Assembly (NCBI GenBank): GCA_000004985.1 | Contig: GG738951.1 | Direction: 5' to 3' (one strand) | DNA length: 24,047 nucleotides | DNA from: Naegleria gruberi | Lineage: Eukaryota | Shown: one piece after another, positions 4,418-18,787 of the stretch | Numbering within the stretch: the stretch's first letter is position 1 | Layout of the letters: each line of letters starts with the position of its first letter | Notes under the pieces: generated by a model | What the model was told of the DNA's origin: nothing | What the model saw: only the letters and a program-made list of their open reading frames with translations | Databases searched by the model: none | Translations under genes and position numbers: made by a program

Positions 4418-4650
4418 TATAATAGATTTAATATTACAGTGAGTATATTATTATAAAAGATATATATTATAGAAGTGTTTAGCCTTTTTTTTTTGTATTT
4501 TTAAGAGACACTAAGATTTACAGTATATAAATGAAAGACAACACATCAGAGAGAGTGAAGATGTTGATGATAATGATGAACTTTTTGACCCTTAATGAAG
4601 TTGAGAGGTAAAATCTCTATCTCTCTCTATTGATGTCTACAATATGATTG

Positions 4651-4800
4651 AGAGAGATGGAACCATACATGAAATATTACATCTCTTGTTTTTCAGAATG
4701 TTGACCATGTAAATAATACAAGACTTGAATTATTGTATAATATCTAAATATTCATTGACACAATTCAAAAAGGCATGGAACATGGAACAATTTTGTAAAG
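4651..4800 (+). repeat. Left copy of the flanking direct repeat
   Basis: gagagatggaaccatacatgaaatattacatctcttg...ttcattgacacaattcaaaaaggcatggaacatggaacaattttgtaaag. It shares the 24-mer ggaacatggaacaattttgtaaag (4777-4800) and the catgaaatatt[a/g]catctct, ttgaca and ttcaaaaag blocks with the right copy. Weaker similarity extends upstream to the ttgagaggt box at about 4600. Confidence 0.7.
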
Positions 4801-4919
4801 TTATCTCTTAATCATTGTGTAAACTCCTCCTTCCAATCAAAATAGTTCCAGTTCAATGATTGTTGATTCTGACATGCCACTTTAAAAAGTGTGAATATTC
4901 TAAACTCACATTAAAAAAA

Positions 4920-6437
4920 ATGAGAGCATTCACATCCACAATCCGCCACCACACCCTGAAGAAGAATCACACAACAAGCTTTTTATTTTCAAAAAGAATT
5001 GGAAAAGAATCAATTAGAACATTTTCTAAAAATGTAATCCTAAACAATCAAATTCCGCCACCAACAGAAGAACAAGTAAGACACTTATATGACTTGGTAA
5101 TGAATAAAATTGTTTGGGAAAAGGCAAATAGAAATATAGTTCATGAGGATTTGAAAATGGAAAATCAATTTTCGAAACTTGATTTGAAACTTTTGATTAC
5201 TAATACCTCCCTATTTGCTGATCTATTTTCTTTCACACAAGATTTATTGACATTTGATCGATATAATCTTGTTCAGAATAGGGAAGAATTGAAAGAGGTG
5301 AATATTTCAAGTTTGATTCAATATTCTCAATTTTTTGCACATTTACTGAAAGGTATTGTTCAAGGATGGTATTCATTTAAAGATTTGAAACCATACTTTC
5401 CAAATCCACTTACAGGAGTTCAAATTGATGGTAAAGATTTGGTTGAAAATGATCCAGTGACCTATTTATATTGTTTATGGGAATTGAATTCAAAGGATTT
5501 TGTAAATGAACAAGTTCCATTTACAAGAGAGAAATTGATTTGTTTAATTCCAATCATTTTCTCTGCACTAGACCAAAATGATCCTGTAACTGCTTTACAA
5601 TACATGAAATTATTTGTAAAGCATTATCCTAAAGTTAAACAATTATACATAACATCAGCTCAAGGTAGTGATGAATTTTCATTGGAATCAAGTTGGACAA
5701 AAGTTTTAGGTAAAGTTTACACTGAGAATGAATTTGATTCGTGTTTAGATTGGGAAACTGAACTACCTGTAAACCTAAATGGAATGTACAATATTTTTAA
5801 AACACATGCAGACCACCAAACAATTGAAGATCAATGGAAAGTACTCTCAGTTATTGAAGAGGAAGAAAAAAAAACACCATCCAATCCTTATATTTTAGTA
5901 TTTAAGGGATATTTTGGAGATAGTGCTAAAGATTTTATTTATGGATCCAAATGTTTAGAACTATTAGCCAAATCACCTGCCAAAGTTGAAATATTGAAAA
6001 GAACTGAGAAATTTAATGTATTCAAGAATGAACAACCATCCAACCTTGAAATAATCAAAGATTTCAAATTCTTTCCTCTATTATTTTGGAAATGTGTAGT
6101 CTTATCAAAACAGGAAGATCCACGAATGGCAGTAGAATTATTCAAACAAGTGGAATATTATTCAAAAAAACAAACTCATTTTCCATTATTACTCTTGAAA
6201 ATGACTTTAGAATTCAGATTTGCCAATGATGAAGAGGTATTACGTATTTTCCAATTGATGGAACCATTCGAATCACAAACTAATCTTGTCCTTCTAGTCA
6301 GTGCAACAAACTATGCTTGCATGTCAATGAAAAATCTAGGATTAGAACAGGAAATTGTTCCAATGTTGGAAAAATTTATTGAGAAATATGGCAAGGAAAG
6401 TAATTTTACAACTATTCTCAATTACTATAAAAAGTAA
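4920..6437 (+). CDS. Element-borne ORF (505 aa) with no recognisable domain and a basic S/T-rich N-terminus. It could be a retroelement ORF1-like protein or an alpha-helical repeat protein.
   Basis: The ATG at 4920 sits in an aaaaaaaATG context. The track's 4860 start is TTG. The frame is open to 6437. Codon usage is unlike the surrounding genes. Confidence 0.5.
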   Translation: MRAFTSTIRHHTLKKNHTTSFLFSKRIGKESIRTFSKNVILNNQIPPPTEEQVRHLYDLVMNKIVWEKANRNIVHEDLKMENQFSKLDLKLLITNTSLFADLFSFTQDLLTFDRYNLVQNREELKEVNISSLIQYSQFFAHLLKGIVQGWYSFKDLKPYFPNPLTGVQIDGKDLVENDPVTYLYCLWELNSKDFVNEQVPFTREKLICLIPIIFSALDQNDPVTALQYMKLFVKHYPKVKQLYITSAQGSDEFSLESSWTKVLGKVYTENEFDSCLDWETELPVNLNGMYNIFKTHADHQTIEDQWKVLSVIEEEEKKTPSNPYILVFKGYFGDSAKDFIYGSKCLELLAKSPAKVEILKRTEKFNVFKNEQPSNLEIIKDFKFFPLLFWKCVVLSKQEDPRMAVELFKQVEYYSKKQTHFPLLLLKMTLEFRFANDEEVLRIFQLMEPFESQTNLVLLVSATNYACMSMKNLGLEQEIVPMLEKFIEKYGKESNFTTILNYYKK

Positions 6438-7440
6438 AATAGTTCTATTTTCATTAAAAGTTACTACTAGCTCTCAACATTGCACATATTGTTTTTCAAA
6501 ATTGCAACAGTTCAGCCCAAGAGGTACTTTCCTGTATGCTGAAAATTCAGCTTCAATTGCCAGTTGTGTTGATGAGGAACAACTAACTATTGTAACTTGG
6601 TTATTAAGGATAAAGAAGGAAATGAAATTTTGAGAGAACGTGCAACTTTGGATGAATTGAGTGAAGAAACATTCTCTGTTTCATTCTTAATTAAGAGTGA
6701 GCTATATACTGATTATAATATATCAGTAGAATTGGAGGAGAATTCATACTCTTTAGATAATAGTGAACATGTTGATCCATCTCCAATTCAAAAACTTAAC
6801 TTACAAATCAGATGCATTGAAAAGTTCCAAATAGATGCAGCAAGTACAATCTCAAAGAGTTCAAATGAAGAATCTCCATGTTAATGGTAAAATTGTTGAA
6901 GAGAAATTGGAATTCATTGCAAATGAAGTAAAAAAGATTCGTGATAGAACTATTTGAAAAATCATTTCAGGTACCTCACGTGAAAATATCAATGCAGTTC
7001 TTCCATTGTACATTGGTGAGGAACATTGGAGGGTTGCTCGTAAAAAGATGAAGCCAGTTTTAGGATTTGTCGCTACTTTGGATGTAATGGGTTATGCTTT
7101 CGAGCAATTCAAAACCATTCCATTCTTTGTTCTCTTCAAGCTTCTCCAAGAATGCTCTGAACAAGAATCAATGACTGAATTCCAATCTTTGAGATTAAAT
7201 TTGGTTCTAGCCAATTTTTAGAAACTGATGATGTGTATTGTGCAGCTGGTATGTTATTTGGACAAAAGAGAGGTAATGGTGAGTTTATTTATTTCACTCG
7301 TGCTCTATGTACCCCTGGTGTCAAGTTCTTTAAAAGTTGAAAATGTTATTGAGAGGTGAATTCCTTATAGAGTTGTTGAGTTGTTGGATTCTGCGCTTGG
7401 AGAATTGAATTCAATCCGGTGATGTTGTGGAAATTACTAA

Positions 7441-7536
7441 GAGAGCCTATCTGTACATGAAATATTGCATCTCTCTGGCTTTTCAATATATTGACAAAGT
7501 TCAAAAAGTCAAGGAACATGGAACAATTTTGTAAAG
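7441..7536 (+). repeat. Right copy of the flanking direct repeat; it lacks about 54 nt relative to the left copy.
   Basis: gagagcctatctgtacatgaaatattgcatctctctggcttttcaatatattgacaaagttcaaaaagtcaaggaacatggaacaattttgtaaag. The same 24-mer is at 7513-7536. A ttgagaggt box sits at about 7349. Confidence 0.7.
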
Positions 7537-7584: not shown

Positions 7585-8955
7585 ATGTCACATGATTCAC
7601 AATCTGATCAATTAAATGATCAACAACAACAAGAAGAAGAATATAATGAAGAGGAAGAAGAAGAAGAAGAATTTAATGAAGAAGAAGAAGAAATTAAAAA
7701 AACACTTGATGATGAATTATTAGATAGTGCTATTAATAGAGATTTTAATAGATTAAAATTATTATTAATAGAAAAAGGAGCCAATGCATTCTATAATAAA
7801 AGAATAGAAGGAGTATGGGGAGCCTATGAAGAATATGGAGTAATACATAAAGTATTACTTGGATGGGATGATATGAAAGAACAAATGCAAGCTATAGAAT
7901 TATTATTAAGTAAAGGTGCTAATGTAAATGCTATATATGGTAGTAGTAATTGGAAAGGAAGTGGATCAAGTGGTACAGCCTTTGAAATTGTATTAAGTAA
8001 GAATAATATTGAATTAATCAAATTATTTTTAAAATATGGAGCAGATTCAAATACATGTCAAAAAAGACAAGCACACACTATGAGATATGATGGTTCATCA
8101 TCTTTTCCTTTTTTATATCAAAGTGTTAAATATGGTAATTTAGATTTATTTAAATGTTTATTAGAACATAATGCTAATACTAATTTATTTGCTTTTAATA
8201 GAGGTTCATCTGAATATGGTCCTATTGATGATTTAAAAGAATTACCTTTACATTTAGCATGTAAATTATTTAAATCAATTAATAATATTAATATTAATAA
8301 TAATAATAATATTAATGAATCTTATGATAGTGATGATGAATATAATAATAATAATAATGAATCTAAATCTAAAAATAATTATGAAAAATATAAAGAAATG
8401 ATATTATTATTAATTAAATATAATAGTGATATTAACATGTATGGTAAAACAGTATATCAAATACCAAATGAAAATTATCCTAAAAATATAAATGAAGAAG
8501 AATATAATGAAATATCAGATCCAAGAGGTGATAATTTTATACCACAAACTATAAATATTAAAATACAATATACACCACTACATTTATCAATTATTACAAA
8601 TCAAAATGAAGAATTATTTAATTTATTATTATTTAATGGTGCAAATTCAAATATTAATTTTATTAAAAATAATATTGAAATTTCTACTTTAGATTTATTA
8701 AAAGAATATAATTTAAATTGGAATTTAAATTTTCAATGGTCAATTAAATATCATAAATATTTACCTAATCATTTAAAATTAATTATTAATACTTTACAAT
8801 ATATTTCATATCATTTAAATTGGCCTTTAAATTTAGATACTTTATCTATTATTTATAATTTTTTATGTTTGGATTATTTTTATGAAAATGATTTAAAATT
8901 TATTAAAAATAGACAAGAAGAATATGAAAAATTTAAAAAAACTAATTATTATTAA
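7585..8955 (+). CDS. Ankyrin-repeat protein with an acidic (poly-Glu) N-terminus and an Asn-rich insert
   Basis: Repeated ankyrin-like units are present: LLLIEKGANAFYN, IELLLSKGANVNAIYG, IKLFLKYGADSNTC, KCLLEHNANTNLFAF, LPLHLACKLF, TPLHLSIITNQNEELFNLLLFNGANSNINF. The ATG is in A-rich context, the frame is continuous and ends at a TAA. Confidence 0.65.
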   Translation: MSHDSQSDQLNDQQQQEEEYNEEEEEEEEFNEEEEEIKKTLDDELLDSAINRDFNRLKLLLIEKGANAFYNKRIEGVWGAYEEYGVIHKVLLGWDDMKEQMQAIELLLSKGANVNAIYGSSNWKGSGSSGTAFEIVLSKNNIELIKLFLKYGADSNTCQKRQAHTMRYDGSSSFPFLYQSVKYGNLDLFKCLLEHNANTNLFAFNRGSSEYGPIDDLKELPLHLACKLFKSINNININNNNNINESYDSDDEYNNNNNESKSKNNYEKYKEMILLLIKYNSDINMYGKTVYQIPNENYPKNINEEEYNEISDPRGDNFIPQTINIKIQYTPLHLSIITNQNEELFNLLLFNGANSNINFIKNNIEISTLDLLKEYNLNWNLNFQWSIKYHKYLPNHLKLIINTLQYISYHLNWPLNLDTLSIIYNFLCLDYFYENDLKFIKNRQEEYEKFKKTNYY

Positions 8956-9476: not shown

Positions 9477-10682
9477 TCACTTCTTGATTTTAATTTTAGT
9501 TTCTAAATTTGAACAATTAATGAAAGATGTATTTTTAATAACATTATTTAAATCAACATTAAATTTAATTGATAAATAATTTAATTTTTTTAAATATTTT
9601 AAAAAGGAAATTGTTGTAACATTTTCAATTTTTAAATATTTTATATTTTCTAAAATAATATTATTATCATTTATATTAAAATTATTAATATAAATACTTT
9701 CTAAATTAAATATTACTGAATTTATATTATTTAATTGTAAATTACCCATATAAAAATGTTTTAAATTTTTTAAAGTTCCATTTAATAAATATTCCCAAAT
9801 TAATTCATTTTCTAATTTATATACAGCTATATTTATTTTTAATTTTAAAATATTTTGTAAATAAATTGATTCAAATAAATATTTTAATATATTTGGATTT
9901 TTAATAGAAATTTCTAAACTTTGTAAATTTTTAAATTTTTCTAACATTTCACATAATTGTTCATCAATTATTTTAGTATATTTAAAATGTTTTAAATTAT
10001 TTGGAATTAAACTTGTTATTATATTACAATCTATTAATTCTAAATCTTCTAAATATGGAAAATTAATATTTGTAAATATTGAATTATAACTTTCAATTGA
10101 TAAATTTTTTAATTTTAATTTTCTTAAATTACAAGTTATTAAATTATTAGGAATTTCAAATTTTAAATTTTTACTTGAATCAAATATTAATAAATTATTT
10201 AATTTGTTAAAATCTATAATTATATTATTATTTATATTGTCATTATTTTTAAATTTTAAAATTTCAAGTTGATTCCAATTTGTATTTAAAATTAAAGATT
10301 CAACATTTTCAAAATAATTTGAAATTTCGATAATTTTAATTAATTTTAAACATGATGGTTGATTTATAATTAAATTAATTAAATAATTAGATATTTTAAT
10401 ATTTTTAGATAAAATTAAATGAATTGAAGAAAATAAATTAGATTTCATTATATTAATAAATTCATCACTTAATTTAGTTCCATATTCGGATAATGATATT
10501 TGTTCATCATTTAATTTTGAATGTTTAAATATTTGATAATCATTACATTTTAATATAAATTTATATTCTTCAAATTTAAATCTAATTATTTTACATGTGT
10601 TACATAAATTAATCCATTCTTTTATTCCGTTAGTAAAGGGTATTATTTGATGGTAGAATATTTCTGATGGCAAGTTTTGCAT
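9477..10682 (-). CDS. F-box-like / leucine-rich-repeat (FNIP/LRR-type) protein
   Basis: The N-terminus MQNLPSEIFYHQIIPF fits the F-box LPxEI...I pattern. The body is built from 22-25-aa L/I/N-rich repeats (NLKxLxI..., IPNNLxxL...), typical of dictyostelid LRR/FNIP proteins. Confidence 0.55.
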   Translation of the reverse strand: MQNLPSEIFYHQIIPFTNGIKEWINLCNTCKIIRFKFEEYKFILKCNDYQIFKHSKLNDEQISLSEYGTKLSDEFINIMKSNLFSSIHLILSKNIKISNYLINLIINQPSCLKLIKIIEISNYFENVESLILNTNWNQLEILKFKNNDNINNNIIIDFNKLNNLLIFDSSKNLKFEIPNNLITCNLRKLKLKNLSIESYNSIFTNINFPYLEDLELIDCNIITSLIPNNLKHFKYTKIIDEQLCEMLEKFKNLQSLEISIKNPNILKYLFESIYLQNILKLKINIAVYKLENELIWEYLLNGTLKNLKHFYMGNLQLNNINSVIFNLESIYINNFNINDNNIILENIKYLKIENVTTISFLKYLKKLNYLSIKFNVDLNNVIKNTSFINCSNLETKIKIKK

Positions 10683-10717
10683 TTTTTTTAAAGTTGATCA
10701 AAATTCAATCACATAAA

Positions 10718-10788
10718 ACTTCTCTCGAAATTGAGTGATAATCAGAATTGAATAGCTGAATTGAATAGCTTCCCTTTAGAGAGAAGTT
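10718..10788. repeat. Palindromic element with an internal 13-bp tandem duplication, immediately upstream of the F-box/LRR ATG
   Basis: aacttctctc (10718-10727) and gagagaagtt (10779-10788) form a 10-bp perfect inverted repeat. gaattgaatagct is tandemly duplicated at 10745-10757 and 10758-10770. Confidence 0.6.
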
Positions 10789-11861
10789 ACATCATAAACA
10801 AAAATCGTCCAAAATTAATGCCAGTTATTGTGTGAAATAAAGGTAAGTGATTGGATGGGCAGTAGTATTAACTTATTATCAAGTTTAACATGGACGTCCT
10901 TTTCCTTCATTGAACTCAAGATCTTTCCAATCCTCGAAATCTGCCAAAGTTAATTGATCTTCTCCAGAAGTCTGTAAATGCAGTGACAGTCTAACACAGT
11001 GTTCTCTCTCGTTTGTTGTTAAAGTATACTCATGAAAACATGGTTGTGTAAGTGTATATCTATTGAATTCCGAAATGCGAACAGTGAGGGATATATTAGT
11101 GAATGTATGCAAACATCAACAGTGAACGATTATCCTTGTTCTATTATTCCAATTTAATAATGCTGTTTGAGATCCACTCTTGTTTGTATTCTAAGACTAT
11201 AGTAAATGTGTGATCATCACTATACCTGCCGCTTAACTCCTATGTTCCGTTTTCTAGATGTTAAAGAGTATTCCTATGCTCAAAGTTGACTATCTCCGAA
11301 AAAATAACTTAACTGTAAGCACATTACAATATTTAGGGGATTGTAAAGTCACTACCACTCAGCAGACTGTTTGCGATAGAACTAGCAAACTGCTTCCTAA
11401 GTTATTGTTTGTGTGTTTATACCAACTTGGCAATTGGAGGAGATCAGTTACAATAGAGAAGGAATGGAGATTGAATTTGGAGAATTGGCAGTTACTTCAT
11501 GAATAATTCTGAGTAAATTTACTTAGAAAAAATGTAAGTTGCCTTCCTAGATCTCAATCACTAGCAACATACAATGAATCCAACAAAAAAGCAAATTTAG
11601 AATAAAATGTGTATTTTGAGTAGTCGAACAAAGTTCCAGACCGAAATGTCAGCTGCTTCTAAGATACATGATCTTTCAATGAGAATAACCTAAGAGTGGA
11701 GTACTTGGGTAATAGACAGTGTAATAGTTGGTTTTTAGTTGGCTTTGTTCCCTCTAAACCCCATCCACAACCCTAATTTAATTTTCCCCAACTTCGAACG
11801 ATTTGGTTGGTTCGTTGGTTGGTAGTAGGTTGATTGTTGGGTAAAGGAATGAAATTGGTGG

Positions 11862-11949
11862 GTAACTATTCAATAAATATTCAGTAACCATTCAGTTATT
11901 ATATGGTAAACATTCAGTGACTATTCGGTGAACATTTAGTTTCTATGCG
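11862..11949. repeat. Four tandem 22-bp units (GTAACnATTCAGTnnnTATnnG), preceded by a GGTTGG-rich tract at 11795-11846
   Basis: The units are gtaactattcaataaatattca, gtaaccattcagttattatatg, gtaaacattcagtgactattcg and gtgaacatttagtttctatgcg. Upstream lies ggttggttcgttggttggtagtaggttgattgttggg. Confidence 0.6.
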
Positions 11950-12517
11950 GCTTTTAGTGTGTTGGTTCATTTGACTGAAAGTTTCCCTTAATTTACAATT
12001 TTCATAATTTGAGTAAAACTGATTAATTTATTTACAATTGTTGTGCTTCTTCTGAGTCTGATTGACCATTATCTGAATAAAGATCTGCACCATCTGATTC
12101 CATATCAAGCAAATTAATTGCGTCTGCTGAAGGTTGTGTTGCTCTTGTCAGGTTTTTTGATCCAATCTTTAACAAGTGTTAAAAAAACAACTTGTTCATC
12201 TTCTGCAACATAGCTCTGCAATGAAGAGAATTGACCATTGTTGGCTCTGACATGTTCTCTTGTTGGTGAAGAGGTAGAAGGTTGAATTTCTGTTGTTGAA
12301 TTGAGGATTGAACTCCTTCTATATATTAGAAACTTCGACATTGGAATTCTTCTTTCTTTTTGGCTTCTCTTTTTTCTTTAATTCTATTAGACTCTTTCTT
12401 TTAAAAGAACTCCACAGATTGCTGAATATCTTACTGACATTAACAATAGCTCTAATTAATTGTTGGAAAATAATTAATAAATAATTAAGGATAAACTTCA
12501 CTTAGAATACTTTGCAC

Positions 12518-12891
12518 TTATTTATATGTATCCGTTGACAATCCATTAACATGTTTTCTGCGCAATGTTTCACCAAAAGTTAATTGCAGACAATCTTTAC
12601 ATGAACTCATGGCAGTATCATTTTGGGGAATCCCTTTTCGCTTACAGTAAATTCGAATACATTGCATAACTTCTCTTTTTAATCTATATAAAATCAAATA
12701 ACTAACTAACAACTTGCTTACTTACGCTCGTTGAGTATCCTTCCATCCCACTGCAGCCTTGGGATAACAGTCAGCCAACTTTTCATATGTGGCTTCTGGT
12801 AAACATGTTATGGTTAATTTAGTCTTCTTCTTTGTTATTAGAATAATTTATGTTGAATAAATGGTGTTAAACTACTTACTTTTACGCACAT
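12518..12891 (-). CDS. Small spliced gene encoding a roughly 93-aa Cys-rich basic protein of unknown family. The proposed structure is join(12880..12891, 12726..12829, 12518..12683) on the minus strand, with a possible 5'-UTR intron and a 9-aa uORF upstream.
   Basis: Three GTAAGTA donors lie on the minus strand within 250 bp (plus 12719-12725, 12873-12879, 12960-12966). Each is followed by a short AT-rich segment ending in AG. The spliced frame reads MCVKKKTKLTITCLPEATYEKLADCYPKAAVGWKDTQRALKREVMQCIRIYCKRKGIPQNDTAMSSCKDCLQLTFGETLRRKHVNGLSTDTYK*. The introns are only 50 and 42 nt, and codon usage is non-host. Confidence 0.35.
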
Positions 12892-13031
12892 GATGGTGAT
12901 GATGCTGAAATGAAGTAAAATTGGCAGTTGATGGAAAAGTTACAAGGTTGATGTAGAATTACTTACCTGGCATTTATTGTGTTTTTTTGATTCGAATTTT
13001 CAGTCGAAAGCCAGTTTTTAGACGAAAAAAA

Positions 13032-13565
13032 ATGTCTTTACAAAATAACAAGGAACAAGGTATCTATTTTGAAAGACGCTGTGATTCTTGCAAGAAATCT
13101 TTACACACAGTATTTTACCAACCAATTTCAAGTGCAAAATTCAAGATTCAAATTAAATGTAACTGTGAAAACTCTGAGTGTAAAAATTTTACTAAGGAAA
13201 AACTTGGATGTTGTTTATGTGATTATAGTTGTGTCAAATCTGAAACGTTGTTGAAACATATTACAAAAGAACATTCCATCAAGTTTCCAAAAGTGTGTTG
13301 TGATAAACATTACACCACAATGGAGGAATACGTCGATCATATCAATTTTAAACATCAAACCAACACAAAGAGTGCAATAGAACATCAACCGTTAAAGAGA
13401 TTATGTTTATCTAAACCAGAAAAACCAGTAAAGCTCAGCTCCTCTGCAAATACATCTTTACAGCATGTCATTACTCCTCAAAATGATACATTGGAGTGCA
13501 AGAATGTCTTTCATTTGATCAAATTCAAACCAGATGTAAATATTTCAAAACTCAACAACCAATAA
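13032..13565 (+). CDS. C2H2 zinc-finger protein (177 aa), divergently oriented from the small Cys-rich gene with only about 60 bp between them
   Basis: The ATG sits in aaaaaaaATG context; the track start at 12987 is TTG. Finger 1, CCLCDYSCVKSETLLKHITKEH, fits C-x2-C-x12-H-x4-H. Finger 2, CCDKHYTTMEEYVDHINFKH, is finger-like. Further Cys clusters occur upstream (CDSCKKSLH, CNCENSECKNF). Confidence 0.45.
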   Translation: MSLQNNKEQGIYFERRCDSCKKSLHTVFYQPISSAKFKIQIKCNCENSECKNFTKEKLGCCLCDYSCVKSETLLKHITKEHSIKFPKVCCDKHYTTMEEYVDHINFKHQTNTKSAIEHQPLKRLCLSKPEKPVKLSSSANTSLQHVITPQNDTLECKNVFHLIKFKPDVNISKLNNQ

Positions 13566-13879
13566 TTGATGAAAATGATACTGAACAGGACCAATATGTA
13601 TACTATGGTGTTGTAAATTCAAACATTCATGCAACAACTGGCTATGTTGCACTAAATCAAATAATTGGTAAATGTTTGATTCATAGTATTGCAGGCAAAG
13701 AAATGTTCAACCAATACTCGTTTTTCATGAATTTCCATAAAGTTAAATTTTAAAAATAGAACATTTATTAATTTTTGGCTTTGGAGGTGTATTCAACAGC
13801 GTCCAGCTACCACTACCACCAACTACATCCACTCTTAGGATCAAAGAACAGAACTGAATCGTTTAATTCAATAATTTAT

Positions 13880-16861
13880 TTAAAGTTTTGATTGTTGTTT
13901 GTTGGAATCATTGTTAATAATTTCATGAGCAGCAATTCTTCCATAAACAACACATTCCAATAAACTATTACCAGCCAATCTATTTAAACCATGTAATCCA
14001 CCTGATGCTTCACCTGCAGTATATAAACCTTGAATTGGTTCAACAGTATTATCATTTGCAATTCTTCTTAAAACTCTTGCCTTTTCATCAAATAATAAAC
14101 CACCATGTGTATAGTGAATGGAAGGTGTAATTCTTGAAATATAAATGGTATCATTTAAATTAAATAGAGTTGGGAATAAATTCTTTCCAAAATCATCTAC
14201 AATTGAATTATTTAATTGATATTGATTATAAAAATGATTATAATTTTCAATAGTATTAATTAATTGTTGTAAATTTAAATGTTGTAATGATTCTTGATGA
14301 GCATGTTGTAAATTATTAAATTTCTTAATAAAACCTTTACCAATATAAAAAGATAATAAAGATTCACTAAAAGATTTAGCAACATGATCATTCATAATCA
14401 TATAAGCAGTAGTATGTCCATTTTCAATTTCAGATTTACAATTTTTAAATATCATATCAGAAACATAATCTCTTCTACCTAATTCATTACAAAATCTATT
14501 ACCATTCTCATTAACTATAATACCACCATAAGCACGTAATGCTTCAGCTGCTAAAAATACTGTCATACTTTTAGGATTTAATGGATCAATAAATCCAGTT
14601 GGATGTACTTGAATAGATTCCATATGTATTAATGAGGCTCCTAATTCTTTAACTGCCATTCTAATACCTTCTCCATTAGCAAATTTACCATTAGTAGTTG
14701 GTAATTTTGATAATTGTGGTGCATATTCTTTTAAATATCCTTCTCTATCTGCTGCATATCCACCTGTTGTTAATACAACTGATGATACTTTTAATTCTTT
14801 AACTTGTTGTTCTTTTAATTCTTTTAATTGTTCTGATTGTGATTCTTTTGATTGTTCTTTTGATTCTTGTTCAAGAGTAATATATTTAATACCTGTTACA
14901 ATTGTATTATTATTTTCATCAATTAAAGTTAAAAAACCAATCATTTTAGTACTTGTCATTACAGTAACTCTATCATTTAAATTATTCTTAATATAATTTA
15001 ATAATTTAAAAGTAATTTCAGCACCAACATTCATTGCACGTCCAACTTTAGGTGGAGCAGAACGATGTGTACGTGCCATTGAATGACCACCACATTGTGT
15101 TACTAATTCCATTCCAATACCATGATTTTCTAAAAATTCAATTGCACTTGTTGATTCTTTAACAAGTGTTGAAATTAATTTAGGATTACCTGCTTGTTTA
15201 CCTGATTTAGTAGTATCAGATATAAATAAATCAACTGTATCAGGAATTGATAATCTTTCCTGTGCTTTAGTTAATACTCCATTAATACCTGATGTTGCTT
15301 TAGCACTATTACCACCTGTACGTTCTTCTTTTTCAATTAAATAAACATAACCTCCTAATTCTGCAATTTCAATAGCTGCTGATAATCCTGCAAGTCCACC
15401 TCCAATCACTGCTACTTTTATTGGTGATGATGATGATTGATTAGTTGTAGATGTAGATTCAGTAGTGGTGGTGGATTGTGTAGTAGATTGTTCAACAGTT
15501 GGAGTGTCCATACTTGGTTGATTGGTAGTAGTGGTATCGGATTGTTTTTGATCACTTGTTGGAGTAGTAGTGATAGGTGTAGTAACCTCTTCTTGTTGTT
15601 GTTTAGTAGTAGTAGTAGGAGTGGTGCTAGTAGGAGTAGTTGTTGTTGGTTCTTCTTGTTGTTGTTGTTCAACTTTAGCCTTTGATTCTACTTGTTTGGT
15701 TTCAGCAGTAACTGTAGGGGTTGTTGTTGGAGTACTTGGAGTAGCAGCAGTAGTAGTAGTAGTTTCAGCTTGAGGTGTTGTTGTTGTAGTTGATGTGCTT
15801 GGTTGAGTGGTGGAAGTAGTGGTGGTTGTTGGGTTCAAATTTGGAATTTGTTTTTTATGAATCTTATTTTGGATAAATTCTAAAGCTTGTTCAAATTCAC
15901 TATTTAAATTTGTATAAATTTTAATCCTATCACTATTATTTAATAAAATATTATTTAAATTATTATTATTACTATCAATAATATTATCATCATAATTATA
16001 AAAATAATTAAATTCTTCAAATAATGTAATTGTATTTTGATTAATAGAATTATGAATACTATTATTATCATTTTCATTTAAATTATTTAAATTACAATGT
16101 TTTAATAATGGTAATAAAATAGATCTAGTAGGTAATATATTTGTAATTAATTTATATAATTTTTTAAATAAAATAGATGATGTCTTTTTACCTAATATTT
16201 TATTATAAATAATTGAAATTAATTTATGAATAGATTTATAATCTTTAATTAATTCAATTATTTTATCAATTGTAATCTTTTCATTAATAATTGAATTATT
16301 AATTGGTAATATTGGTGAAAATAAAACTATATTTTCAATATTTTCAATATTATTATTTAATTGTTGTAATTGTTTATAATATAATAAAGTATAAAAAGCA
16401 CCTAATTGATGACCAATTAAACTATATGAATTTAATTTTAATTCATTAACAATAGATTGAATAGAATTCATAATTAAATAATATTGTTCTTTAGAACATG
16501 AACAAGTATTTAAAGTATTATTGTTAGTATTTAAAAAAGATTGACCAATACCAGGTCTATCAAATTTAATTAATCTAATAGAATGTTTTTTAGCTAATTC
16601 ATCTTCATTTAAATGTCCATATGAAAGTGATCCAGGTGTAGGATGTAATTGAATAACTGCATGTCCATTCAAATCACCCAATTCAATATAGGCTATTTTA
16701 GATCCATCCTTTTCAATATATTTTAATTTATTACTAATATTACTATTTAATAATGATTCTGTATGTTTAGGATTTTTATATAAATTAACATTACTTGAAT
16801 ACAATAATGATAAGACTATTGCAATCAAGGCTGTTGTGAGAATAAGTAATTTACTCAACAT
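13880..16861 (-). CDS. 993-aa fusion protein. From N to C: signal peptide or signal anchor; alpha/beta-hydrolase fold domain with the nucleophile Ser replaced by Gln; mucin-like Thr/Pro/Ser/Gln linker; and a soluble FAD-dependent fumarate reductase (OSM1/FRDS, flavocytochrome-c-type flavoprotein).
   Basis: The N-terminus MLSKLLILTTALIAIVLSLLYSS is hydrophobic. HPTPGS and DRPGIGQS match alpha/beta-hydrolase boxes, but the elbow is GHQLG (codon caa at minus-strand 16408-16406). TTTTSTTQPSTSTTTTTPQAETTTTTAATPSTPTTTPT forms the linker. The C-terminal half matches yeast OSM1 closely: VAVIGGGLAGLSAAIE...GGNSAKATSGINGV, GGHSMARTHRS, LPTTNGKFANGEGI, IQVHPTGFIDP, FLAAEALRAYGG, HYTHGG, GLYTAGEASGGLHGLNRLAGNSLLECVVYG. 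Confidence 0.85.
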   Translation of the reverse strand: MLSKLLILTTALIAIVLSLLYSSNVNLYKNPKHTESLLNSNISNKLKYIEKDGSKIAYIELGDLNGHAVIQLHPTPGSLSYGHLNEDELAKKHSIRLIKFDRPGIGQSFLNTNNNTLNTCSCSKEQYYLIMNSIQSIVNELKLNSYSLIGHQLGAFYTLLYYKQLQQLNNNIENIENIVLFSPILPINNSIINEKITIDKIIELIKDYKSIHKLISIIYNKILGKKTSSILFKKLYKLITNILPTRSILLPLLKHCNLNNLNENDNNSIHNSINQNTITLFEEFNYFYNYDDNIIDSNNNNLNNILLNNSDRIKIYTNLNSEFEQALEFIQNKIHKKQIPNLNPTTTTTSTTQPSTSTTTTTPQAETTTTTAATPSTPTTTPTVTAETKQVESKAKVEQQQQEEPTTTTPTSTTPTTTTKQQQEEVTTPITTTPTSDQKQSDTTTTNQPSMDTPTVEQSTTQSTTTTESTSTTNQSSSSPIKVAVIGGGLAGLSAAIEIAELGGYVYLIEKEERTGGNSAKATSGINGVLTKAQERLSIPDTVDLFISDTTKSGKQAGNPKLISTLVKESTSAIEFLENHGIGMELVTQCGGHSMARTHRSAPPKVGRAMNVGAEITFKLLNYIKNNLNDRVTVMTSTKMIGFLTLIDENNNTIVTGIKYITLEQESKEQSKESQSEQLKELKEQQVKELKVSSVVLTTGGYAADREGYLKEYAPQLSKLPTTNGKFANGEGIRMAVKELGASLIHMESIQVHPTGFIDPLNPKSMTVFLAAEALRAYGGIIVNENGNRFCNELGRRDYVSDMIFKNCKSEIENGHTTAYMIMNDHVAKSFSESLLSFYIGKGFIKKFNNLQHAHQESLQHLNLQQLINTIENYNHFYNQYQLNNSIVDDFGKNLFPTLFNLNDTIYISRITPSIHYTHGGLLFDEKARVLRRIANDNTVEPIQGLYTAGEASGGLHGLNRLAGNSLLECVVYGRIAAHEIINNDSNKQQSKL
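15420..15840 (-). repeat. Low-complexity (ACT/ACC/AGT)n-type coding repeat, encoding the Thr/Pro-rich linker of the fusion protein
   Basis: Overlapping ORFs on both strands here are artefacts of the simple-sequence tract. Confidence 0.7.
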
Positions 16862-17152: not shown

Positions 17153-18016
17153 CTATTGTCTTGGTAAAATAGAATCTTTTAAATCTTGATTTTGTAACAT
17201 TGACCATTCTTGATCTGAAAAGATGAATAAATGAGAAGGTAAAGGTTTACCATTTGGTAATTTAACATTGGGTATTCTTAATTCATCAAAGAAAGGATGA
17301 GCTAAAGCATCCATTGGAGTAATTCTACGTTTTGGATCATATTGTAATAATTTTGTAATTAAATCAACACTATTATTCATTTCAATGAAAGGATCAATTT
17401 GTGAACCAGAATTTGAACCATTATTAGCTTGATAATTACGTTGTAAAAATTGAAATCTATCTGCAAAAACTTGATCCCATGGATTTGGTTTAACTTGTGG
17501 AAATTTAAATTCAGTATAATTCTTATTCATTGCTAAAATATCTTGTTTAGAAGGAGCACCTAATACTTTAATAATTTCAACTAATTGATCAACTGAACTT
17601 TCACCTTGAAATAAAGGAGTACCTAACATTAATTCACCCATAACACATCCACATGACCATACATCAACTGAACAAGTATATTTTGTTGATTGAAATATTA
17701 ATTCAGGTGCTCTATAATATCTTGAACAAATATATGATACGTTAGGTTCTCCTTCTTTTAATTGTTTTGCATTTCCAAAATCACATAATTTTAAAATTCC
17801 ACTCACTGGATCTATTAATAAATTTTGTGGTTTTATATCACGATGACAAATACCAAGTGAATGTATATATATCACTGAACGTAATAATTGAAATACAAAT
17901 AATTTAACATAAATACTTGGTACATAGGAATTATGTTTAGCATAATTCATACAAAATCTATAAACTGTATCAGGTACATATTCTAATACTAAATTTAAAT
18001 ATACTTCTTCTGGATC
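17153..18016 (-). CDS. gskA: Glycogen synthase kinase-3, exon 2 (kinase subdomains V-XI and C-terminal tail)
   Basis: [20 protein letters not shown]...[19 protein letters not shown]...[12 protein letters not shown]...[19 protein letters not shown]...[15 protein letters not shown]...[15 protein letters not shown] matches GSK-3beta almost residue for residue. The acceptor ...AAAATAATAG lies at 18017-18020. Confidence 0.9.
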
Positions 18017-18160
18017 CTATTATTTTAAATTGTTTTAAATTGTTTTTTAAATATTATTATAGATATAAATATTATTATTATAAATATTATTATTATTAAA
18101 AATATTAAAATTATTAAAAATATTAAAATTATTAAAAATATTATAAATATAAAAACTTAC

Positions 18161-18787
18161 TCTATCACCTCTTGAATAAAAATAATTTTTCAATTCAACA
18201 ACATTTGGATGTGATAATGTTTTCATTACTTGTAATTCTCTATTTTTAAATCTCTTATCTTGAAGTACTTTCTTAATAGCTACTATATCTCCTGTTTCTT
18301 GTACTTTAGCTAGAAATACAACACCAAAACTACCATTACCAATCACTTTAACAGCACTATAAGAAACTACTTTGCCTTGTCGTGTTGGTGGTGATGTTGT
18401 TGAGGTTGCTGCTGCTGTAGTAGTAGTAGTAGTAGTAGATGAATTATTATTTGGTTGTTGTTGTTGTTGAATAGATGAATTGACTAGGCTAGTGGAAGGT
18501 TGTTGTTTTGAATTGATGGATTTGGTTTTTCTAGTTGGTGATTCATTTCCAGGTTGATTAGTTATATTATTTGTATTATTAGTGGTTGTAGTAGTACTTG
18601 TTGTTGTAGATTTTGATGAAGATTGATAATTATTATAGGATCTATTGGTTTTATCATTATTTCCAATTTGAAGATAATTAAAATTATTAATTAAATTATC
18701 CATATTATTATTGTTAGTAGTATTTGTATTGGAATTTGAATTGTTATTATTATTATTATTATTAATGAAGGAATTATTATTGTACAT
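18161..18787 (-). CDS. gskA: Glycogen synthase kinase-3, exon 1 (poly-Asn/Thr N-terminus, ATP-binding loop, VAIK, HRD upstream region). The true start may be the second Met, MDNLINNF.
   Basis: [67 protein letters not shown] is followed by a GTAAGT donor at minus-strand 18160. The 144-nt intron (18017-18160) contains (aaaatattaaaattatt)n repeats. Phase is preserved: 627 nt plus 864 nt. Confidence 0.9.

What the first reader, a model, noticed from the sequence alone, without database searches (positions are those of the whole stretch)
12518..12973. Tiny Cys-rich gene with three GTAAGTA donors and unusually short (42- and 50-nt) introns
Three consensus GTAAGTA donors occur on the minus strand within 250 bp. 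Each is followed by an AT-rich stretch ending in AG. Splicing them yields an in-frame 93-aa protein (MCVKKK...CYPKAAVGWKDTQRALKREVMQCIRIYCKRKGIPQNDTAMSSCKDCLQL...). It carries five Cys in the last 60 residues (C-x4-C ... C-x2-C), which could form a small zinc-ribbon or knuckle-like fold.

A 62-nt intron with its own ATG lies in the predicted 5' UTR and would give a 9-codon uORF. The introns are at or below the usual dictyostelid size floor, which is itself unusual.
Basis: seen in the sequence. Interest (0 to 1): 0.5.

Follow-up and report, generated by a model that had tools for sequence, protein, structure and literature searches.

The report
Decayed copy of a Naegleria repeat gene
The three short introns are real, but the "tiny 93-aa gene" is the broken remnant of a repeated, five-exon Naegleria gruberi gene of unknown function, whose intact copies encode 241 aa, so the finding is ordinary.

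Summary
GTAAGTA occurs three times in the window, all on the minus strand within 250 nt (12966, 12879, 12725). Such clustering arose in only 47 of 100,000 shuffles.

The window is a whole 24,047-bp scaffold filed as Naegleria gruberi NEG-M, not a dictyostelid. A full HMMER search with the last-exon peptide found annotated N. gruberi paralogues on other scaffolds: EFC41441.1 (241 aa), EFC46272.1 (193 aa) and EFC35563.1 (109 aa). Their models use exactly these three introns.

Against them, the window copy carries seven lesions:
- a 5-nt insertion, which creates both the "uORF" and the MCVK start;
- a TAC-to-TAA nonsense change;
- a mutated intron-4 donor;
- four frameshifts.

A 98.6-99% identical environmental contig of the same locus has instead lost exons 2-3. 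The divergent neighbour gene is also truncated.

The locus is therefore an unprocessed pseudogene inside a dead copy of a dispersed, probably mobile, unclassified repeat. Nothing supports a zinc ribbon. Interest is low.

The parts
12967..12973 (-). Exon 1 (coding part): ATGCCAG.
   Evidence: Paralogue models EFC41441.1 and EFC35563.1 begin MPASSPS. Coordinates.
12905..12966 (-). Intron 1: 62 nt, GTAAGTA...TTTCAG, 32% GC. It is a coding intron (phase 1), not a UTR intron.
   Evidence: Required by the MPA|SSPS junction in the paralogues.
12880..12904 (-). Exon 2: 25 nt here, 20 nt in intact copies. It carries a 5-nt insertion TGTGC at 12890-12886. The insertion breaks the frame from the native ATG (giving MPASSPSCA*) and creates the ATG of 'MCVK'.
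   Evidence: Removing TGTGC restores ...SSPSVKKKTKL as in EFC41441.1.
12830..12879 (-). Intron 2: 50 nt, GTAAGTA...ACAAAG, 22% GC.
   Evidence: The junction VK|KKTKL is present in the paralogues.
12726..12829 (-). Exon 3: 104 nt (KKTKLTITCLPEATYEKLADCYPKAAVGWKDTQRA).
   Evidence: 100% match to residues 9-44 of EFC41441.1.
12684..12725 (-). Intron 3: 42 nt, GTAAGTA...ATATAG, 24% GC. It contains an in-frame TAA if retained.
   Evidence: The junction QRA|LKREV is present in the paralogues.
12506..12683 (-). Exon 4: 178 nt. It has a premature stop TAA at 12520-12518, where the paralogues and contig L001 have TAC (Tyr).
   Evidence: The paralogues read ...TDTYKYVQSI.
12452..12505 (-). Intron 4: 54 nt, 19% GC. 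The donor is mutated to CTAAGTG in the window; L001 has GTAAGTG.
   Evidence: (12505 G>C on the plus strand). The paralogue junction is YVQSI|(S)YCYVSK.
12032..12451 (-). Exon 5: 420 nt, ending in TAA at 12034-12032. It has four frame-breaking indels relative to the paralogues:
- +1 nt in TGTTAATGTC (about 12440)
- +2 nt TA in AATATATAG (about 12321)
- -1 nt at about 12295
- -2 nt at about 12147
   Evidence: Segments of EFC41441.1 map to three different frames. Four small edits restore the frame. L001 and L004 share the +1, +2 and -2 lesions.
13032..13753 (+). Divergent neighbour gene of the same repeat. The annotated part is 13032-13565 (EFC36052.1, 177 aa, C2H2-type zinc-finger motifs). It lacks 102 aa present in paralogue EFC35823.1 and is frameshifted at 13499. 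The out-of-frame C-terminal remainder runs to 13753.
10690..13870 (.). GC-richer island (about 32% GC, GC3 about 28%). It fills the whole spacer between two very AT-rich genes (GC3 6-7%) and holds the repeat copy. Boundaries are approximate, taken from composition only.
   Evidence: Contig L004 shows that at least 11558-12261 also belongs to the repeated sequence.

Best explanation
The locus 12973-12032 (minus strand) is an unprocessed, intron-retaining pseudogene. It is a degenerate copy of a multi-copy Naegleria gruberi gene annotated elsewhere as NAEGRDRAFT_80659, _79192 and _76782.

**Intact gene (shown).** It has five exons of 7, 20, 104, 178 and about 417 nt. They are separated by four short introns of 62, 50, 42 and 54 nt with GTAAGTA or GTAAGTG donors. 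The product is a 241-aa protein. It has scattered Cys near the N-terminus, a basic KKKEKPKRKK stretch and an acidic C-terminus. It has no detectable relative outside N. gruberi.

**This copy (shown).** It has seven disabling changes. One of them, a 5-nt insertion, creates both the 'uORF' and the apparent MCVK start. Another, a nonsense change, creates the apparent stop.

**Context.** The gene lies head to head, 58 nt apart, with a second gene encoding a C2H2 zinc-finger protein. That gene is also repeated and is also truncated here. The whole 3.2-kb island has a base composition and codon-position pattern unlike the flanking genes.

**Inferred.**
- The island is a dead copy of a dispersed, probably mobile, unclassified repeat.
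- This copy makes no functional protein. Any transcript would carry premature stops.
- The intact protein is probably nuclear, judged only from its basic and acidic stretches.
For: **Identity of the scaffold.** Exact look-ups place the window's genes in N. gruberi NEG-M records on a 24,047-bp contig: EFC36055.1, EFC36052.1, EFC36056.1 and EFC36050.1.

**Paralogues.** A HMMER search of the exon-4 peptide against 1.84 billion representatives hit EFC46272.1 at E = 8e-25 with 98% identity. Its 90% cluster holds EFC41441.1 (241 aa, 362-kb scaffold), EFC35563.1 (109 aa, 7.2-kb contig) and an ENA fragment.

**Mapping.** All of EFC41441.1 maps collinearly to 12973-12035 on the minus strand, but in three different frames. 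Seven small edits give a 242-aa product that differs from it at three residues plus one extra residue from an alternative acceptor.

**Independent confirmation of lesions.** Three of the frameshifts are also present in metagenome contigs L001 and L004, so they are not sequencing errors.

**Independent decay.** L001 covers the same locus, since it runs on into the fumarate reductase gene. It is 98.6-99% identical. It lacks 12673-12917 (exons 2-3) with a non-GT-AG junction. It also keeps TAC, GTAAGTG and the base missing at 12295.

**Neighbour gene.** It lacks 102 aa and is frameshifted relative to EFC35823.1.

**Composition.** The island has 32% GC. GC3 is 28-29% in island ORFs against 4-10% in flanking genes. 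Island introns are 19-32% GC against 4-8% for flanking-gene introns.
Against: - I could not read the DNA of the paralogous loci, because the N. gruberi assembly is not in the contig look-up. The 'intact' state is inferred from JGI gene models, which are themselves predictions without shown transcript support.
- No terminal repeats, target-site duplication or transposase domain were found. Mobility is therefore inferred only from dispersed near-identical copies, internal deletions and foreign composition.
- Some small contigs carrying copies could be alternative haplotypes rather than separate insertions.
- Four of the seven lesions are seen only in this Sanger scaffold.
- A residual 93-aa or 49-aa product cannot be formally excluded without RNA or protein data.
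Confidence: 0.85

Rival explanations
1. This is a functional stand-alone gene for a 93-aa Cys-rich, zinc-binding protein. It has two very short coding introns, a 5'-UTR intron and a regulatory 9-codon uORF.
For: The ORF and splice sites exist as described. The donor cluster and the spliced ORF exceed chance. A C-x4-C...C-x2-C spacing is present.
Against: - The ATG, the uORF and the stop all arise from lesions relative to three annotated paralogues.
- The same locus in a 98.6-99% identical relative has lost the start codon exon and exon 3 and lacks the stop.
- The two substitutions in the retained part are a stop loss and L88F, so there is no sign of purifying selection.
- There is no Pfam, PDB or fold match.
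- The AlphaFold model of the Cys region is a helical hairpin.
Confidence: 0.04
2. The locus is an intact, functional member of the 241-aa family. On this view the apparent lesions are Sanger sequencing or assembly errors in a small, low-coverage scaffold.
For: Four lesions are seen only in the window: the TGTGC insertion, the TAA, the donor C and the -1 nt at 12295. Small scaffolds are often of lower quality.
Against: - Three frameshifts (+1, +2, -2 nt) recur in independent metagenome contigs L001 and L004.
- Seven errors in under 1 kb, including a 5-nt insertion, is implausible.
- The neighbour gene carries a 306-nt frameshifting deletion that L001 shares, since it encodes the same 177-aa truncated product.
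Confidence: 0.04
3. The repeat is not a mobile element. It is an ordinary small multigene family, or a set of haplotype variants: a gene pair duplicated segmentally, of which this copy has degenerated.
For: No TIRs, LTRs, TSD or transposase/RT domain were found. Copies on the 7-kb and 10-kb contigs could be alternative haplotypes. Both genes contain or resemble ordinary host-type features (spliceosomal introns, C2H2 fingers).
Against: - Copies lie on at least two large scaffolds (530 kb and 362 kb) and three small ones, at 98% or higher protein identity.
- The island's composition differs sharply from its flanks and fills an entire intergenic spacer.
- Internal deletions and rearrangements differ between copies. 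This is typical of decaying transposon copies.
Confidence: 0.3
4. Chance arrangement. On this view the three heptamers and the ORF are a coincidence in non-coding DNA.
For: The total count of GTAAGTA in the window equals expectation. ORFs of 60-80 codons are common in 32% GC DNA.
Against: Clustering has p of about 5e-4 to 5e-3. The same junctions build a 241-aa ORF in the paralogues.
Confidence: 0.01

Closest known systems
Naegleria gruberi predicted/hypothetical protein family: NAEGRDRAFT_80659 (EFC41441.1, UniProt D2VNN8, 241 aa), NAEGRDRAFT_79192 (EFC46272.1, D2VAA5, 193 aa) and NAEGRDRAFT_76782 (EFC35563.1, D2W5T9, 109 aa)
   Same: After indel repair the window copy differs from EFC41441.1 at three residues plus one extra residue from an alternative acceptor.
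   Different: The window copy is not annotated. It carries a 5-nt insertion, a nonsense codon, a dead splice donor and four frameshifts, so it cannot encode the family protein.
Unprocessed (duplicated) pseudogenes and dead copies of dispersed repeats
   Same: The introns are retained. Disabling lesions have accumulated independently in two lineages of the same locus. The neighbouring gene of the same unit is also truncated. Composition differs from the flanks.
   Different: No element termini, target-site duplication or transposition enzyme could be identified, so no repeat class can be assigned. Most N. gruberi repeats are likewise unclassified (PMC12344493).
Zinc-ribbon / zinc-knuckle mini-proteins
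   Same: Four Cys are spaced C-x4-C-x14-C-x2-C in a short region.
   Different: There is no profile match. The predicted structure is a helical hairpin, not beta knuckles. No diverged homologues exist to test ligand conservation.

Membership tests
N. gruberi NAEGRDRAFT_80659/79192/76782 protein family | Near-identical sequence over the whole length of the family protein | tested here: met
   E = 8e-25 to EFC46272.1. All segments of EFC41441.1 map collinearly to 12973-12035. After repair there are three substitutions plus one extra residue.
N. gruberi NAEGRDRAFT_80659/79192/76782 protein family | Same exon-intron junctions | tested here: met
   The protein junctions MPA|SSPSVK|KKTKL, QRA|LKREV and YVQSI|(S)YCYV fit introns of 62, 50, 42 and 54 nt in the window.
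N. gruberi NAEGRDRAFT_80659/79192/76782 protein family | Uninterrupted reading frame of about 241 codons (a functional member) | tested here: not met
   The unrepaired spliced sequence is full of stops. Seven lesions are listed.
Zinc ribbon / zinc knuckle | Match to a curated zinc-ribbon or knuckle profile | tested here: not met
   Pfam gave no family for the 93-aa product, the exon-4 peptide or the 241-aa paralogue, even at E up to 1-5. PDB sequence search gave nothing below E = 0.27.
Zinc ribbon / zinc knuckle | Cys pairs on beta-hairpin knuckles | tested here: inconclusive
   Single-sequence AlphaFold of the exon-4 peptide gives two helices (pLDDT 72). The full 241-aa model is unreliable (pLDDT 40). 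Foldseek against PDB gave no hit with E <= 0.001.
Zinc ribbon / zinc knuckle | Cys ligands conserved in diverged homologues | not testable with these tools
   Only paralogues of 98% identity or more exist. The single weak outside hit (P0130) is an ORF read through TGA codons in a tandem repeat, and it lacks the C-x2-C pair.
Gene with 5'-UTR intron and regulatory uORF | The upstream ATG opens a separate short ORF ahead of the main ORF | tested here: not met
   In the paralogues the same ATG (ATGCCAG) starts the main ORF. The short ORF here results from the TGTGC insertion.
Transposable element | Multiple dispersed, near-identical copies | tested here: met
   Parts of the unit lie on scaffolds of 530 kb, 362 kb, 24 kb, 10.2 kb and 7.2 kb.
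Transposable element | Terminal inverted or direct repeats and a target-site duplication | tested here: not met
   No end-to-end repeats above shuffle scores were found.
Transposable element | Encodes a transposase, integrase or reverse transcriptase | tested here: not met
   No Pfam domain was found in either gene product or in other island ORFs. There are only weak C2H2-like similarities.
   The proteins are exact matches to N. gruberi NEG-M records. The repeat has copies on large N. gruberi scaffolds. No dictyostelid appears among the 120 best kinase hits. An EML gene is present. The flank composition does resemble dictyostelids.

The most novel reading that the evidence does not exclude
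The 3.2-kb island may be a copy of a so-far unclassified mobile element of Naegleria. The element would carry two head-to-head orphan genes. One is a 241-aa protein gene with four 42-62-nt spliceosomal introns. The other encodes a C2H2 zinc-finger protein of at least 342 aa. Neither product contains any recognisable transposase. The copy sits in an unusually AT-rich compartment of the N. gruberi genome (GC3 4-10%, against a genome mean GC of 33-35%).
Probability: 0.3. Interest if true: 0.35.

Novelty: new member of a known kind. Interest (0 to 1): 0.15.

Why it matters
There is little biological consequence. The result corrects a plausible-looking ab initio call and shows how lesions in a pseudogene can mimic a neat small gene with a uORF.

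Practical value:
- It flags an unannotated pseudogene.
- It flags an annotated but truncated neighbour (NAEGRDRAFT_76280) in the N. gruberi reference.
- It documents a dispersed, unclassified repeat unit with very short introns.
- It points to a compositional oddity of this scaffold that may deserve a separate look.

Tried and rejected
**Searches that found nothing**
- The word-index protein search with the 93-aa product found nothing. This was a false negative, since the full HMMER search later found the family.
- Exact look-ups of the 93-, 92-, 91-, 64- and 49-aa variants are not in the collection, so no such model or ORF call exists.
- Viral and JGI metagenome contig scans with the 93-aa product and with EFC35823.1 found no relatives.
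- tRNA and Rfam scans of the window found nothing.
- Literature searches for the locus tags and for PRJEB11402 gave no papers.

- The window contig and the paralogue contigs are not on record in the contig look-up. The paralogue DNA, and therefore the repeat ends, could not be read.
The contiguous exon-4 peptide was used instead.

**Ideas tested and dropped**
- L001's 245-bp gap as an intron (a sign of RNA origin): rejected because the junction is CCAA|GTTATG, not GT-AG.
- Contamination by Dictyostelium purpureum, which was also sequenced at JGI (from my own knowledge): rejected. The fumarate reductase is alone in its 90% cluster, and no dictyostelid appears among the best kinase hits.
- Terminal repeats at the island ends: none above shuffle scores.
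- P0128 and P0129 (E = 3e-5 and 2e-4) are repeat proteins with a recurring YCRRTG..NNQSSY motif, taken as low-complexity matches. P0130 is an ORF read through TGA codons in a tandem repeat. None was accepted as a homologue.
- Fold search of the 54-aa model gave no significant match.

Full report
**Observation**

On the minus strand, GTAAGTA occurs at 12966, 12879 and 12725 and nowhere else in the window on either strand. The stretches that follow end in AG after 62, 50 and 42 nt, with 32%, 22% and 24% GC. ATGCCAG at 12973, spliced over the 62-nt intron, gives MPASSPSCA*.

Three sites in 24 kb is the chance expectation (2.63). Three on one strand within 250 nt is not. It arose in 47 of 100,000 shuffles of the local 3.2-kb island and in 93 of 20,000 shuffles of the whole window. 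With the donors fixed and acceptors free, an ORF of at least 93 aa across at least two junctions appeared in 9 of 300 shuffles.

**Where the window comes from**

Exact-sequence look-ups show that the window is a complete 24,047-bp scaffold of the Naegleria gruberi NEG-M assembly:
- 13880-16861 (-) is EFC36055.1, a fumarate reductase.
- 13032-13565 (+) is EFC36052.1 (NAEGRDRAFT_76280).
- My spliced kinase model is EFC36056.1.
- The 505-aa ORF at 4923-6437 is EFC36050.1.

The flanking genes have GC3 of 4-10%, poly-N and poly-T tracts, intergenic GC near 12%, and introns of 76 and 144 nt at 4-8% GC. Against a dictyostelid origin:
- No dictyostelid is among the 120 best hits of the kinase.
- An EML gene is present.
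- The repeat described below has copies on large N. gruberi scaffolds.

Published figures for Naegleria:
- GC is 33% for NEG-M and the mean intron is 203 bp (PMC8296547).
- The median intron is 80 bp in N. lovaniensis (PMC6125883).
- A 30-bp minimum intron was used for N. fowleri (PMC8296547).

Introns of 42-62 nt are therefore short but not anomalous for this genus.

**What the gene really is**

The word-index search with the 93-aa product found nothing. That was a false negative. A full HMMER scan of 1.84 billion representatives with the contiguous exon peptide (window 12521-12682, minus strand) hit EFC46272.1 at E = 8e-25 and 98% identity.

Its 90% cluster holds three annotated N. gruberi proteins and one ENA fragment:

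| Protein | Locus tag | Length | Contig |
|---|---|---|---|
| EFC41441.1 | NAEGRDRAFT_80659 | 241 aa | 362-kb scaffold |
| EFC46272.1 | NAEGRDRAFT_79192 | 193 aa | 530-kb scaffold |
| EFC35563.1 | NAEGRDRAFT_76782 | 109 aa | 7.2-kb contig |

The 241-aa model begins MPASSPSVKKKTKLTITC...DTQRALKREVMQC....

The whole of this protein maps collinearly to 12973-12035 on the minus strand, but in three different frames.

**Lesions in the window copy**

Seven small edits turn the window sequence into a 729-nt CDS. Its 242-aa product differs from EFC41441.1 at three residues plus one residue from an alternative acceptor:

| Edit needed | Position | Effect in the window |
|---|---|---|
| Remove TGTGC | 12890-12886 | Frameshift; creates the 'uORF' and the MCVK ATG |
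| Restore G of the intron-4 donor | 12505 | Dead splice donor (CTAAGTG) |
| Remove one A from TGTTAATGTC | about 12440 | +1 frameshift |
| Remove TA from AATATATAG | about 12321 | +2 frameshift |
| Add one base | about 12295 | -1 frameshift |
| Add two bases | about 12147 | -2 frameshift |

It breaks the frame from the native ATG, producing the 9-codon 'uORF'. It also supplies the ATG of MCVK. The 93-aa ORF is thus a by-product of decay.

**Independent sequences of the same locus**

An ENA metagenome sample, ERZ929261, contains the same organism or a close relative.

Contig L001 is 98.6-99% identical and collinear with 12278-12672 and 12918-14306. It runs into the fumarate reductase gene, so it covers the same locus.
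- It lacks 12673-12917: exon 2, intron 2, exon 3, intron 3 and the adjoining ends of intron 1 and exon 4. The junction is CCAA|GTTATG, which is not an intron.
- It retains TAC, GTAAGTG and the base missing at 12295.
- It shares the +1 and +2 frameshifts.

Contig L004 shares the -2 frameshift and shows a rearrangement at 11883/11558.

Three lesions are thus confirmed independently, and the two lineages have decayed in different ways.

**Surroundings**

The start codons of this gene and of the divergent plus-strand gene are 58 nt apart.

The plus-strand gene (EFC36052.1, 177 aa) has C2H2-type finger motifs. It has a paralogue, EFC35823.1, on a 10.2-kb contig, which is 296 aa and partial. The window copy lacks residues 157-258 of that paralogue and is frameshifted at 13499. 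The remaining C-terminal coding sequence continues out of frame to 13753.

Both genes of the unit are therefore broken here. The rest of the island (10690-12030) has 34% GC and no convincing ORF.

The island fills the entire spacer between the start of the 401-aa gene (10682) and the stop of the fumarate reductase gene (13880). Its ORFs have GC3 of 28-29% against 6-7% in the neighbouring genes.

Several features fit a dead copy of a mobile element:
- dispersed copies on at least five scaffolds at 98% protein identity or higher;
- internal deletions and rearrangements that differ between copies;
- a composition foreign to the flanks.

However, I found no terminal repeats and no transposase-like domain. 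I could not read the DNA of other copies. The class of repeat therefore remains open. Most N. gruberi repeats are unclassified (PMC12344493).

**Function of the family protein**

- There is no Pfam family for the 93-aa, 54-aa or 241-aa sequences.
- There is no PDB sequence match.
- There are no accepted homologues outside N. gruberi. The weak hits P0128-P0130 are repeat or mistranslated sequences.
- Single-sequence AlphaFold gives a helical hairpin for the Cys-bearing exon (pLDDT 72) and an unreliable, mostly helical or disordered model for the 241-aa protein (pLDDT 40).
- Foldseek against PDB gave nothing significant.

The zinc-ribbon idea has no support, but it is not formally excluded. The basic KKKEKPKRKK stretch and the acidic tail suggest a nuclear protein. 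This is inference only.

**Verdict**

The thing itself is an unannotated, unprocessed pseudogene of an already annotated, repeat-associated orphan gene family of N. gruberi. The short introns are a property of that family and are not remarkable for Naegleria. Interest is low.

What remains unexplained is the scaffold's two-class composition, together with a syntenic relative at 41% GC (L003). That is a separate matter from this finding.

Noticed in passing
whole window; e.g. 13880-16861, 17153-18787, 7585-8955, 9477-10682 versus 4500-7500 and 10690-13870: The scaffold has two composition classes.
- Very AT-rich genes have GC3 of 4-10%, poly-N/T tracts, introns above 90% AT and intergenic GC of about 12%.
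- Two islands of 30-33% GC have GC3 of 21-37%.

The N. gruberi genome mean is 33-35% GC. A syntenic environmental relative (L003, JGI 3300002220) has 84% aa identity in the kinase and the same kinase-fumarate reductase order, but is 41% GC. Unexplained.
   Followed up: partly
13032-13753 (+): The annotated gene NAEGRDRAFT_76280 (EFC36052.1, 177 aa) is a truncated copy. It lacks 102 aa present in EFC35823.1 and is frameshifted at 13499. The annotation probably describes a pseudogene.
   Followed up: yes
4860-7500 (+): Island A holds EFC36050.1 (505 aa, no Pfam domain, alone in its 90% cluster). It is followed by ORFs in shifting frames (6355-6633, 6597-6884, 7006-7221). These may be further exons with very short introns, or a decayed gene.
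   Followed up: no
L001 nt 1-38 and 427-431; L004 nt 382-509: The metagenome contigs of the island show structural differences from the window:
- a 245-bp deletion (12673-12917);
- an inverted junction joining 12278 to 12538-12501;
- an inverted junction joining 11883 to 11558-11703.

These are either real rearrangements or assembly joins between repeat copies.
   Followed up: partly
10819-10833 and 12968-12982: TGCCAGTTATTGTGT and TGGCATTTATTGTGT form a 13/15 direct repeat. Each overlaps an ATGCCAG that is followed by a GTAAGT donor, but on opposite strands (10818 plus strand, 12973 minus strand). This may be a remnant of an inverted duplication of the gene's 5' end, or chance.
   Followed up: no
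The word-index protein search reported no candidate for the 93-aa query. Yet an annotated protein (EFC46272.1) shares 49 residues with it at 98% identity. Negative results from that tool on short queries should not be trusted.
   Followed up: yes
11850-11940 (+): There are several imperfect copies of a motif of about 12 nt (ATTCAGTAACCATTCAGT..., AACATTCAGTGACTATTCGGTGAACATTTAGT) in the non-coding part of the island. Their function is unknown.
   Followed up: no
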